A stretch of DNA of 63,732 nucleotides, the filler included, from Octopus bimaculoides (taxonomy: Eukaryota): NCBI RefSeq assembly GCF_001194135.2. It is 7 parts of 7 records of this genome, joined end to end, with 100 filler letters (N's around TTAATTAATTAA, not from the genome) between each part and the next. Parts side by side here need not be neighbours in the genome. Positions count along the whole stretch, not along the records: positions 1 to 20,845 come from NC_069003.1; positions 20,946 to 29,877 come from NC_068997.1; positions 29,978 to 37,812 come from NC_068986.1; positions 37,913 to 50,864 come from NC_069004.1; positions 50,965 to 57,947 come from NC_068983.1; 2 more parts are not named here. One strand, written 5' to 3'. The position numbers and the translations under genes were made by a program. Shown here piece after piece: positions 10,925-55,825 of the stretch. Below the pieces are notes generated by a model. The model searched no databases. It saw nothing but the letters and a program-made list of their open reading frames with translations, and was not told the origin of the DNA. Within the stretch, counting starts at the first letter, position 1. Every line of letters starts with the position of its first letter.

Positions 10925-13108
10925 ATGAAAAAGCAAAACGTTTGGCATTACCTGAAAAGGACATTTAATTTAGTTAGAGAATACAAATATACAGAGTCTT
11001 TTACAGCTGTTTATAAAATAGCCAAGCATGTGGATCATCATATTGAGGAAGATTCCATAAGCTGATTATCAGAGAGAGAGAGAACTCAGAGAGAATTGAA
11101 AATGAGGGTATATCCGTAGTCGCAGATATTAATATATTCCAGTTTGTCAAAAATGGGGAAAGGATCAGAGTAAAATAGATATGCGTGAGGTAGTTCCGGG
11201 ATCGAATAAATAATATAGTTTTAGGTAAGGACCATTAGCAATTTCAAATGAGAGTGTTCTATGGTAATCCATGGGAAAGAAATGTCGAGGTTATGTTATA
11301 TATAACATAGCATGGTCCATCGCTGACTCGGGTCCTCCATACCAAAGCCGGCATGCCCCCTGTTGGCTGTGTTTGAGGGAATCTTTACAAACCCTGTCAC
11401 ATCAGTAAGTTATTAAACAAGCAACACGAAGCCTTCTCTATGAGTGTCCACAATTTTTTTCAGTCATTCAAGTTTTACCACAGGTCTATGTGTAGTAAAG
11501 GAATTACTTCTGATTCTCACTAACATGTAGACATGTAGACATATCAGCTAACATGTAGACATATCACTAACATGTAGACATATCAGCTCACTTTATTTAA
11601 TTACTATGTTCACAGTATAGTCATATCTTTTTATCCTTTCTTTGTAGATACTCATTTTCTCCTATATTTCATAATTAACATATTCCATCTAGATTATAAC
11701 TAATGAAATATCCTATCAGTTACAACACCCTCGTAATTAATAGAACATCACCAGCTCTTTCCTCCCATTGTTTAGAGTTATACACTAATTAATAAAATAC
11801 ATATAAATTAATCTAAGTTTCCAGTTCTCTTCACTAATCTATTTACTATGATATCTAATCTCTATTATCCATTAGCAGATTATTTCCTTCATCCTGGGGT
11901 TCTATAATATCACTATACTTAAGCTTAATAAATAAATAAGTAGATAAATGTCCTTTATTTATTTACTTTTTATCTTTATTTTTGATTTATCATTTTAAAA
12001 TCTTTATTTTTATTCTTCTGTTCCCAATGAGCACCGCCTTCATTAACACAACTAATTTTTAAATTTAATATTATGGGCATCTATTTCTAGCACCATCATA
12101 ACCAGGTGAGGCCGAAAATCGCCTCACGTTTAGAAGTATCAGGCCCCTTTTAGCTTTTAATCTCTATTACCTTTTACAATTTTTACCATCAAGACCCTCC
12201 CTTATTACCCTCCCAACCCCCTTCCTTCGCACTTTTGCCAGCTCAGTCTAGCATTTGTGGTCATTAAGAGTGTAAAAGTTTAAAACATCGTCCTTTATAG
12301 GACCGCCACATTATTTACTATTCGGTACTGAGATTCAAAACAAGTTGTTTTTCTCTATACGAGATCAGCGGCTGTGTGCCGCTTATAGAATATATAGTGT
12401 TTGCGAGTGGAGAAAGCTTTCGTCAATAACCAGTGATTGTCTCAGACTGAGAACGGGTAACTACTCAGAAACCATGGTCTGTGAGTATCACGTAAGGCTG
12501 GAGATAGGAGCGATTACCTTCCTTGCAAACACTATACGGACACAGACTGTGTCGATAGCCAGCAGGAAAAGATATTTCCCTGGGGTATAAACAAAAGTAA
12601 CATTGTCCTTTATAGGAGCAACACATTCTGTTAGCAAATAAACTCTGTTAGTTTATAACATCTTCATCCCTTTTAATATCCGTCTATATACATACACCCC
12701 CTAACTTTTCTCGATATTCACCCCCCACTATACTGGATAGTATATGTCTACTCTACTACATCTACCTGTCTGTCTTTCCTCCACATTCTAGTTAAACCTG
12801 TTAAACCATCATTCATTCTCTATTCAAAATAGGAACTGGTAACTTCCACATTTTCCCGCAATGGATTATCATCGAACATTTTTATTTCAGACTACTAATG
12901 GAACTTACCTATAACTATATTATCTATTTGATCTTGGAACTACCTCACGCATACCTACTTTATTTTGAAATTCTCCTATTTTTGACAAAATGGAATATAC
13001 TAACATGCTTAGCTATTCTATAAACAGCTGTAAGAGACTCAGTATGCTTATATTTTCTATTTGAATTAAATGAACTTTTCAATTGATACCAAACGTTTTG
13101 CTTTTCCA
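10925..13108. repeat. Long diverged inverted repeat pair (10925-11295 vs 12830-13108), PLE-end-like
   Basis: aaaagcaaaacgtttgg, ttacagctgtttata and atgcgtgaggtagttcc are reverse-complemented in the second arm; both carry the aaacagctgta HHR half. Confidence 0.75.
12441..12640 (+). mobile_element. HHR-led short interspersed repeat (core CTGAGAA, G8A)
   Basis: ctcaga-CTGAGAA-c-gggt/aact/actc-a-GAAAC-catg-GTC-tgtgag at 12441-12485; body homologous to 17638-17830 and 35679-35885. Confidence 0.7.
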
Positions 13109-13209
13109 TTTTACTTTAATCTCTCTCTCTCTCTATATATATATATACATATACATACCTACATACATACATACATACATATATATATATATATATATAT
13201 ATATATATA

Positions 13210-14570
13210 TGATGTTCTTGATCCTTATTTTGATATTGTTCTTGTATCTTTCTGTGTTTGTGTGTTCGTTCATGTTGCCATTGTGGTTATTGTTGATCGT
13301 GTTATTGCGGCCGTTTTTTAAGTTAATGTATGCGTGTGTATATGGGTTTGCTTACTATGCCCTTTATATAGTTTTTTGTTTACCTATTTGTGTTTATTTC
13401 TTATATTTCATCATAGGTGTATGCATGTTAGCCTTTAGTGTGTGTATTACACTGTATCTGTGTCTTTTTTCGTCACCATCGTGTTGCGTGGTGTGGTGGC
13501 GTAGGTGTTATTGATTCATTCATGTTTTCTGTTGAGGCTCGGTCTGTCTATTAATATGTGTGTGGCCTCTATGATCTGCCTAAGAGTCGCGTTTGTTCTA
13601 TGCGTTTATGATACTTTAACCTCTATGTTATTAACCGAGCATCTGTGTTCTGCTTGAGTAGAGCACCGACGAGCATTTCTCCTCTTTGAGCACCCGCCAG
13701 TGGATGCCTATTCGTTCCCCTATGCTGTGTGCCGTCTCCCCTATGTAAGTAGTTGTCTTGTTACTGCACCGCCCCTCAATACACCGTAAGCTATAGGCTA
13801 CATCTTACAATTAACCTGTTGTTTCATCTTACATACTATACAACTGATTTTCATGCATGGGGACCTACAGATCAGCATTTATATGGGTGTACCTGGACTT
13901 TCCACTATTTTAATCCGTAGATTTACCTTATCTAATGCTTTTGCTAAAAAGGTATGCTAGTTCGCCGCCAGGTGTAGCATCAACGAACATGACACTCTGG
14001 TATTTTTTGTTGTCATGCTATGAGTTGGCCTTATATATGTTTTTCCTGGTTCTTTCTGTACTGTTCCAGGATTTACTCCTGTATAGCGGGCAGATCCCAT
14101 GTGGATCATTCTCTATGATGGCCTTGTATTTAGATCTGGCTCCTTCGTACACTCTAATCCTGTCCCTTTGATTGTAGCCAGAGAATTCCATGCGGTGGAT
14201 GAAATGTATCTTTCCAAATCCGTTGGCTCGCACATGCGGGACACATTCCTCATCACTCTCAAGTCCGCTATTAGGATATTGAACTTGGCGTTGTTTGCAA
14301 TAGCTGCGTTCTTGTGGCCTAGCTATTAAGAAGCCATGGGTTTGGCATATTAGGAATGAAGGATCTGGACCTTGCTATTCTTAGTTTCCAGCCAGAGTTC
14401 CGTGTCTAAAACCGGTAGCCTATAGTTCGGGTGCTTGCTAAGGTAGTCTATTATTACTTTAATACTCGGGTGGATAGAGTTAGCTATTTACTGGATGCTA
14501 TCCATAATGCTAACTTCTAGCTAACCGACATTGTACTATGGAGAAGATGCATAGTTTTAGGTTATTCGTA
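13210..14570 (-). mobile_element. 5'-truncated degenerate Penelope-like element of a second lineage (RT C-terminus + GIY-YIG)
   Basis: IANSIHPSIKVIIDY..RLPVLDTELW, MEFSGY..CPLYRSK, SVMFVDATPGGEL, PCMKISCIVC, TYIGETAHSIGERIGIH, LRQIIEA, SLNRKHE; many stops and frameshifts. Confidence 0.8.
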
Positions 14571-54400: not shown

Positions 54401-55339
54401 CAGCATTTTCGTAGTAAAAATATATATACAATAGTCCATGTAATACGTATGCGTATATAACGAGGCATGTAGACAAACGTTAGCTTATATGTATGCACCT
54501 TCTCGGTATGCTTTCTGTATGTACGTATTTGTGTGCGTATTCATGTCTATAAGCGTATGTTTATACATACATGTATTTATATATGCACATACATGCATAT
54601 ACATACATACACACACACACACACAAATATATATATATGTATATATATATATATATATATATATATATATGTGTGTGTATGCGTGTATATTTGTATACCA
54701 ATACACGCATACCGACTAGCTCATACCCACACACTTATGCAGAGAGGGAGAGATAGATAGATAGATAGATAGATAGAGAGAGATAGAGATAGAGAGAGAG
54801 AGAGATAGAAAGAAAGAGAGATATATAGATAGATAGAGAGCGAGCGTGAGAGAGAGAGAGAGAGAGAGAGAGAGAGAGAGAGAGAGAGAGAGAGAGCGAG
54901 AAAGAGAGAGATGGCGGGTGGGGGGGGGAAATGGAAAGAGTGAAAAATTGTCAGAAAGACTGGCGGAGAGAAATGTAGGATTATATGAACTGATTTAGCG
55001 ATATACATCCTTTAATTATATGTCTGCTGATGTTGTGCCGTTGAACAAGTTAACATTCTTGAAGGTATGTTGGATTAAATTATATTTGCAAACCTCGTGA
55101 GCCAGTTCTCTATGCTATGATAGGTACGTAGCCTTAGTCAATTGAATTATAGTAACAAACTTAAGTGTTCCTCACCGAACAACTTGTTATTCAGCTGAAC
55201 GTCCGTATAAAGTGTAAAGCTCATACATGTTATGGTTTCTGTTTAGCTGATAATTTGCAGTGTTCAATGCAATGCATAGATGCATTATGCATACATACAT
55301 GCTCTCTGTCTATCTGTATGTCTCTGTCTCTCTGTCTTT

Positions 55340-55825
55340 CTCTTCATATATATATCTTCGCTGGAATATGGTGGGGATTCGCTCCTCTGCTTGTAATATA
55401 TATCGGGTGCAGATTGCATCGATAACTAGCTGGAAGAGGCGTCCTCCTGGGGTTAAAAACAGTAGTAACGTTGTGTTCCTAAGGAACGGCCATATTGAAG
55501 TGGCGACAAACGTTACCTCTCTGTATAGTTACTACTTTCATCGCTTATAGAGATTTTCTTCTAACTAGCTACCTAGCTTGTTGCAAGATCAGTGACTGGT
55601 TGTCATTTTTTTAAAATACATATTACGGGCTGGAGCGGACTACTGTTATCTCTAGCGGACGGCTGTCCACTACTGAGATAATCAGAAACAACTCGAAACC
55701 GGACTGTCTCGTGGTCCCGTCGTTGACAGAAGATAGTGGGGATTCGCTCCCCTGCTTGCAGTATATATCGGGTGCAGATTGTAACGATAACCACCTGGAA
55801 GAGGCGTCCTCCTGGGATTAAAAGT
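55340..55825 (+). mobile_element. Head-to-tail tandem of the HHR-led repeat (period 365 nt)
   Basis: gtggggattcgctcc at 55371 and 55736; degenerate HHR ccacta-CTGAGAT..ctc-GAAAC-cggact-GTC-tcgtgg at 55667-55714. Confidence 0.7.

What the first reader, a model, noticed from the sequence alone, without database searches (positions are those of the whole stretch)
12441..55825. SINE-like non-coding family that starts with a ribozyme instead of a tRNA head
Seen: copies at 12441, 17638, 35454-35658(-), 35679, 55340 and 55667 share a body (ctggag..ggag..ctcc, then cagctgg(a/g)..cctgggg.t.aaa..aac(a/g)ttgt). Most begin at or near an HHR. Several end in ..ttact(g/a)c..ctct..gagattt, a terminus also carried by the 14713 and 63436 repeats, which have different bodies. 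No A/B boxes or ORFs are evident. Established: metazoan non-LTR retrozymes are short HHR-delimited repeats that yield circular RNAs. Inference: an octopod retrozyme-like or solo pseudo-LTR family mobilised by PLE RT through the shared terminus.
Basis: partly seen in the sequence, partly recalled or inferred. Interest (0 to 1): 0.7.

Follow-up and report, generated by a model that had tools for sequence, protein, structure and literature searches.

The report
Octopus hammerhead retrozyme with Penelope footprints
The six pieces are four insertions of a common 350-base non-coding repeat that carries a self-cutting-RNA motif in its middle, not at its start; their ends look like those left by Penelope-type jumping genes, so this is likely a parasitic retrozyme of a kind already known in other animals, with cutting and RNA circles untested here.

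Summary
The repeat is real; the 'ribozyme-headed SINE' reading is not. The six pieces are four insertions of a 344-365-nt unit whose end runs into its own start. The type I hammerhead is internal: 6 of 116 copy starts lie at the cut site, 5.4 expected by chance. The 14713 and 63436 repeats are further subfamilies of the same unit, not different bodies. At least six subfamilies exist, 528-2578 first-look candidates per query; the youngest is about 97% alike. Copies end at two internal sites about 45-60 nt apart (154 of 192 arms; 42 of 46 in the youngest), often in (TA)n. Inverted pairs are head-to-head (50 vs 0), and 28 of 31 use one site on each side, half of the testable ones with 8-14-bp target duplications. 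This matches published Penelope-like (PLE) insertions. No copy had PLE coding sequence upstream (0 of 142 loci), and no partner PLE was found. RNA reads show only diverged copies on both strands. Verdict: non-LTR retrozyme, likely PLE-mobilised; new member of a known kind. The scan noted this family before on other DNA of this genome.

The parts
12284..12643 (+). Insertion 1, A-like subfamily, about one unit; ends at site 1. Core 12358-12640, with a decayed upstream piece at 12284-12313
12440..12486 (+). Type I hammerhead motif, G8 changed to A, palindromic helix III CCATGG, predicted cut after 12479
17606..17840 (+). Insertion 2, subfamily A, 5'-truncated, ends at site 1 (G000:C23:14145753 region)
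17637..17683 (+). Type I hammerhead motif with intact core, predicted cut after 17676
35431..35663 (-). Insertion 3, left arm (subfamily B), ends at site 2 with the tail; tail hairpin at 35475-35459
35665..35891 (+). Insertion 3, right arm, ends at site 1 without the tail; hammerhead motif 35678-35726
55360..55825 (+). Insertion 4, subfamily C, 1.3 units head-to-tail; tail hairpin 55540-55556 is internal; damaged hammerhead 55666-55715
14578..14762 (-). Half-unit of subfamily D (tail, then hammerhead 14625-14581 with G8 changed to A); a full 353-nt unit is in L088
63435..63732 (-). Subfamily E copy cut by the contig end; intact hammerhead 63700-63656; ends at site 2
13557..14534 (-). Neighbour, not part of the family: decayed 3' part of a PLE ORF (RT thumb, GIY-YIG). 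Its family has a different hammerhead, and 0 of 23 other copies examined carry the D unit at this junction

Best explanation
This is a superfamily of ORF-less, 344-365-nt circularly permuted repeats with an internal type I hammerhead motif (a non-LTR retrozyme), likely copied into the genome by the enzyme of a Penelope-like element acting in trans, probably from a circular RNA. Shown in sequence: unit, internal hammerhead with a palindromic helix III, conserved fold, two internal 3' end sites, 5' truncation anywhere, read-through across the cut site for up to 3 units, head-to-head arms with the tail on one side, 8-14-bp target duplications, AT-rich targets. Inferred: (1) a tandem copy is transcribed; (2) two hammerheads pair through the palindromes and cut out a monomer; (3) a long rod holds its ends together and it is ligated (about 60% likely; otherwise the template is uncut multimer); (4) a PLE protein nicks both strands of an AT-rich target about 8-14 bp apart and primes reverse transcription from both nicks, one at site 1 and one at site 2; (5) the two cDNAs stop at variable points and are joined head to head. 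The partner PLE is not identified.
For: Period 356 (A), 344 (B), 365 (C), 353 (D), 351 (E, F) from real head-to-tail copies; 66 of 192 arms exceed one unit, longest 1092 nt. 3' ends: 154 of 192 arms in two windows covering 12-14% of the unit (windows drawn after seeing the data); in subfamily F, found later, 42 of 46 readable ends, 16 at c172 and 11 at c217. 50 head-to-head pairs, 0 tail-to-tail; 28 of the 31 pairs with both ends at a site are site 1 + site 2 (p 1.4e-6 against independent choice). Target duplication of 8 bp or more in 7 of 14 non-microsatellite pairs, 0 of 180 shuffled pairings. 49 of 154 ends are followed by (TA)n; flanks 78% AT. Helix III is a different palindrome in each subfamily: CTCGAG, CCAGCTGG, CATG/CTAG, CCATGG, CCCGGG. 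12 of 36 predicted pairs change on both sides, 90% of cells paired against 38-50% when slid. Published PLE features match: inverted pLTR, optional 31-bp tail on one end, 8-10-bp TSD (PMC3846280, passages); both strands cut and extended, two internal RT starts that bound the tail, AT-rich target (PMC11167929, parts 1-2).
Against: No partner: a unit profile found no pLTR match in 80 PLE loci apart from 3 loci holding unit insertions, one of them (L270) directly 5' of a Hydra-like ORF across a 527-N gap. No self-cleavage test; in the 2026 preprint 8 of 9 Xenopus retrozymes did not cleave in vitro. No long tandem array was seen (maximum 3 units). The PAc study found uncleaved RNA to be the dominant template, so read-through does not prove a circle. 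Most motifs in old subfamilies are decayed: intact in 21 of 49 (A), 7 of 19 (B), 1 of 12 (C), 29 of 41 (E), 26 of 33 (F). The covariation control ignores relatedness, and most helices were picked from this alignment.
Confidence: 0.82

Rival explanations
1. Same element and same PLE enzyme, but the template is an uncut linear multimer transcript from a tandem source locus; no circle is involved and the hammerhead acts at another step. (A rival for step 3 only.)
For: Read-through of the cut site (6 of 116 starts there, 5.4 expected) fits this equally well. PAc uses unprocessed RNA in vitro (PMC11167929). No circle in RNA reads.
Against: The hammerhead, its palindromes and the rod that joins the monomer's two ends are kept across subfamilies only about 53% alike by column. 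A 3-unit arm needs a source of at least 3 units, and none longer was seen. Mussel and axolotl units of this size form circles (PMC7229834).
Confidence: 0.35
2. The copies are detached pseudo-LTRs of autonomous PLE families that were not sampled; the ORF-less unit never spread on its own.
For: Every insertion mark is that of a PLE. One F copy lies on the same strand 5' of a Hydra-like ORF (L270); one A copy (L021) has a Hydra-like C-terminal piece 461 nt downstream on its strand. Only top-scoring loci were sampled and N gaps hide many flanks.
Against: Going upstream, copies run back into their own tail instead of into an ORF. 0 of 142 loci have PLE coding sequence within 600 nt upstream on the same strand. 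Only 1 of 30 F loci has a same-strand PLE ORF, and three other Hydra-like loci carry a different hammerhead about 1.3 kb after the ORF.
Confidence: 0.08
3. A SINE-like family whose 5' head is a ribozyme: the RNA is cut at the hammerhead and copied from a fixed 3' end shared with a PLE.
For: Dispersed, short, non-coding, over a thousand candidates per subfamily; three window pieces happen to start within 40 nt of the motif.
Against: No excess of starts at the cut site; 32 of 35 arms that reach it read through; two internal 3' ends, inverted arms and multimers are not SINE traits; no Pol III boxes.
Confidence: 0.02

Closest known systems
Metazoan non-LTR retrozymes (Cervera and de la Pena 2020, PMC7229834: mussel 350-390 bp, axolotl 330-350 bp, coral 220-245 bp)
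   Same: Unit size, one type I hammerhead per unit, head-to-tail copies, GC under 45% (0.38-0.44), no ORF, short palindromic helix III.
   Different: Here mostly dispersed 0.3-1.5-unit copies, at most 3 units seen; two mapped internal end sites, inverted arms and TSDs, which I did not see described in the passages read; cleavage and circles not shown.
Non-autonomous PLE derivatives: vertebrate retrozymes related to pLTRs (bioRxiv 10.64898/2026.07.22.740005); Chlamydomonas MRC1 (PMC8557442)
   Same: ORF-less, PLE-dependent, monomers dispersed over chromosomes, head-to-tail multimers.
   Different: There the link rests on sequence likeness to known pLTRs; here no matching pLTR was found, and the link rests on insertion marks. 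No cephalopod in the preprint's sample.
Insertions of EN+ PLEs (Adineta Penelope, PMC3846280; Anolis Poseidon PAc, PMC11167929)
   Same: Inverted 5' arm, tail on one end only, 8-10-bp TSD, two internal RT start sites downstream of the hammerhead, AT-rich targets.
   Different: No RT/GIY-YIG ORF; tail 45-60 nt rather than 30-40; the tail runs on into the pre-hammerhead segment, closing the unit.
tRNA-derived SINEs
   Same: Short, dispersed, non-autonomous, retroposed.
   Different: No Pol III head, no fixed start, permuted unit, two internal ends.

Membership tests
Non-LTR retrozyme | Short unit (about 150-400 nt) in head-to-tail copies | tested here: met
   344-365 nt; 66 of 192 arms exceed one unit, up to 3.07. 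No long arrays seen.
Non-LTR retrozyme | Type I hammerhead motif in each unit | tested here: met
   Motif by pattern and pairing; intact in 58 of 121 positions in A, B, C, E and 26 of 33 in F. No Rfam match at gathering score in 7 loci.
Non-LTR retrozyme | No coding capacity, no LTR/PBS architecture, GC under 45% | tested here: met
   PBS/PPT were not searched as such; ends are variable, not LTRs.
Non-LTR retrozyme | Self-cleavage of the transcript | not testable with these tools
   Needs in vitro transcription.
Non-LTR retrozyme | Monomeric linear and circular RNA in vivo | tested here: inconclusive
   Three raw RNA runs of one study: diverged copies, both orientations, no pile-up at the cut site.
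PLE-type insertion | Inverted head-to-head arm with tail on one end only | tested here: met
   50 vs 0; 28 of 31.
PLE-type insertion | Short TSD and AT-rich or microsatellite target | tested here: met
   7 of 14 with 8-14 bp, null 0 of 180; 74 of 154 ends next to a microsatellite.
Autonomous PLE or its truncated copies | RT and GIY-YIG ORF upstream of the 3' pLTR | tested here: not met
   0 of 142 loci, 1.5-kb flanks; 1 of 30 F loci ambiguous.
Non-autonomous derivative of a named PLE family | Sequence likeness to that family's pLTR | tested here: inconclusive
   None in 80 sampled loci; sample is a small, gap-ridden part of 2390 and 25695 candidates.
SINE | Pol III promoter head (A and B boxes) | tested here: not met
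   with positive control.
SINE | Fixed 5' start and one 3' end | tested here: not met

The most novel reading that the evidence does not exclude
Subfamily F is a recently active viroid-like RNA circle that a dimeric PLE enzyme copies from two fixed internal sites at once, one per nicked strand. The genomic scars would be direct evidence that retrozymes are inserted by PLE machinery, and the 350-nt unit, with its conserved stem around site 1, would be a minimal cis-signal sufficient for PLE insertion in trans.
Probability: 0.3. Interest if true: 0.6.

Novelty: new member of a known kind. Interest (0 to 1): 0.35.

Why it matters
Retrozymes are known, and PLEs are their proposed helpers on grounds of co-occurrence and pLTR likeness (PMC7229834 discussion; 2026 preprint). 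This family adds insertion-level evidence for that: two priming sites, one-sided tail, TSDs. Its young subfamily gives mapped sites and intact ribozymes for a direct test of template (circle or multimer) and helper. It does not establish a new class of SINE.

Tried and rejected
Rfam: window scan listed only microsatellite-driven hits among the 150 of 293 shown; 0 matches at gathering score in 7 loci. Partner search: GIY-YIG loci (30 top, 20 extended, with duplicates and one non-PLE) and 30 Hydra-like loci showed no pLTR like the unit; L270 lead followed, 1 of 30. First tblastn was swamped by translated SINEs in the queries; discarded and redone. One search was mis-aimed and returned a DNA transposon. 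The PLE fragment beside 14578 is not linked to the D unit in other copies. Excess of 5' stops at the base of the rod (21 of 116, 12.4 expected, p 0.012) was chosen after the fact and is not claimed. A seeming class of 'one unit plus tail' copies came from a length-biased query; not claimed. Units within one insertion are only 1-6 points more alike than between insertions: this excludes recent local duplication but cannot tell circle from multimer. Run search: no RNA holder listed on record. Reads that go back 351 nt cross a junction that genomic copies also hold, so they say nothing about circles. Look-up of earlier notes by sequence was empty. Pfam gave nothing for three window PLE pieces.
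Full report
Setting. The window is seven stretches of a 2.34-Gb genome. Coordinates 'c' count from the first base after the predicted cut site.

Observation. The six pieces share a body, but they are four insertions: 12284/12358-12643, 17606-17840, a head-to-head pair 35431-35891, and a 1.3-unit head-to-tail copy 55360-55825. The 14713 and 63436 repeats align with the same unit. No A/B boxes or tRNA were found.

The unit. Searches of the own genome with window copies gave 1695, 1137, 1462 and 2578 first-look candidates, 40 scored each; these are not copy numbers. 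Flanks showed that the sequence after the body leads back to the sequence before the hammerhead, with periods 356 (A), 344 (B), 365 (C), 353 (D), 351 (E). A sixth, young subfamily F (351 nt, 1773 candidates, arms 97% alike to the reference copy) turned up later. Identity between insertions is about 86% in A, 80-83% in B, 81% in C and 92% in E, so the window's subfamilies are old. Of 192 distinct arms of at least 60 nt in 142 loci, 66 exceed one unit; the longest is 1092 nt.

Ribozyme and fold. The type I motif has a 5-7-bp helix I that changes in step between subfamilies, a short helix II and a one-pair helix III with a palindrome that differs by subfamily. Published work links such palindromes to cleavage as a dimer (PMC4209133, passages). 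Complete motifs: 21 of 49 (A), 7 of 19 (B), 1 of 12 (C), 29 of 41 (E), 26 of 33 (F). Folded as circles, the units give a long rod continuing helix I with a branched head; z from -1.6 to -6.7 for five units (F, no z). On 18 copies, 8 helices have 90% of cells paired and 12 of 36 pairs changed on both sides; slid controls give 38-50% (helices were picked from this alignment and shuffles ignore kinship). The best-kept long stem brackets end site 1.

Ends. 3' ends cluster at c158-190 and c213-243: 154 of 192 arms. Queries for C and E, and the second for A, contained the tail and so favour site 2. In F, 42 of 46 readable ends fall at c167-172 or c209-219. There are 50 head-to-head pairs and no tail-to-tail pair. 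Of 31 pairs with both outer ends at a site, 28 have one of each, 2 have site 2 twice, 1 site 1 twice; 19 pairs have an end elsewhere. Seven of 14 pairs outside microsatellites have an 8-14-bp target duplication, against 0 of 180 shuffled pairings; 14 pairs in microsatellites were left out. 5' ends are spread round the unit: in samples not selected for the ribozyme, 6 of 116 lie within 6 nt of the cut site, 5.4 expected.

Link to PLEs. These marks match EN+ PLE insertions: inverted pLTR, optional tail on one end, 8-10-bp TSD (PMC3846280, passages; PMC8557442, passages), and the in vitro behaviour of Anolis Poseidon, which nicks and extends both strands at AT-rich DNA and starts at two internal sites that bound the tail (PMC11167929, parts 1-2 of 4). 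The copies are not truncated PLEs: 0 of 142 loci have PLE coding sequence upstream on the same strand, and 5 have any. No helper was found: 80 PLE loci gave no matching pLTR; three held unit insertions. One of these, L270, lies 5' of a Hydra-like ORF across an N gap, but only 1 of 30 F loci does so. 'Hydra' and 'Neptune' labels are my reading of motifs from memory, not a call's.

RNA. About 6% of each of three raw RNA runs (one study, same species label) was laid. E: 588, 582, 428 reads; A: 233, 224, 118, of 11.5-12.9 million each. Both orientations are about equal, most reads are under 95% alike, 79-93% run on into unlike sequence, and none pile up at the cut site. This fits passive transcription of old copies inside host RNAs.

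Mechanism. Shown: anatomy and insertion marks. Inferred: transcription of a tandem copy, dimer cleavage, ligation to a circle (about 60%), then twin priming by a PLE protein at sites 1 and 2 and head-to-head joining. Read-through of the cut site rules out a cut linear monomer as the usual template, but not an uncut multimer.

Comparison and novelty. It meets the sequence criteria of a non-LTR retrozyme (PMC7229834, passages and Discussion); cleavage and circles are untested. A 2026 preprint already treats retrozymes as non-autonomous PLE derivatives with many dispersed monomers (10.64898/2026.07.22.740005, parts 1-3 of 5; its supplements were not available). Searches (listings) showed no paper on an octopus retrozyme, and a 2026 Octopus vulgaris repeat annotation has no 'hammerhead', 'retrozyme' or 'ribozyme' in its main text (supplements and Repbase/Dfam not seen). 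Earlier scan notes on other pieces of this genome reached the same class. Verdict: new member of a known kind, interest 0.35; what is added is the insertion-level case for PLE mobilisation and a young testable subfamily.

Noticed in passing
L270:2668-3115; L272-L331: Young subfamily F (351 nt, about 97% alike, 26 of 33 hammerheads intact, helix III CCCGGG), with two co-segregating variants; not present in the window. Best material for experiments.
   Followed up: partly
window 14831-14905: Near-perfect inverted repeat with a stem of about 25 bp just upstream of the D fragment; each arm holds a CUGACGA-like heptamer. Unexplained.
   Followed up: no
window 25838 (-) and 60342 (+): Two more hammerhead-like motifs with long helix II, unrelated to this unit; 25838 has palindrome CCATGG. 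Likely ends of other PLE families.
   Followed up: no
window 6824-9228 (-): Decayed PLE ORF (RT and endonuclease), 43% identical to unnamed ENA proteins; 25695 candidates in the genome.
   Followed up: partly
window 13557-14534 (-); L082-L105: Decayed PLE family with its own 3' hammerhead, whose helix III looks minimal or absent.
   Followed up: partly
L247, L253, L269; L252, L268: Hydra-like PLE loci with two further hammerhead types about 0.6-1.4 kb after the ORF.
   Followed up: no
L064, L070 (subfamily C): Head-to-head junctions fall in hammerhead helix I, as if the two cDNAs were joined through the stem's own complementarity.
   Followed up: no
window 4344-4738, 6168-6593, 16422-16871, 34908-35307 and others: Many copies of a tRNA-type SINE with A/B boxes; recalled as the octopus OK/OR SINEs, name not checked.
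   Followed up: no
window 15119-15637 (-); L088:1677-2841: Tc1/mariner-like transposase remnants (read from motifs).
   Followed up: no
   Followed up: no
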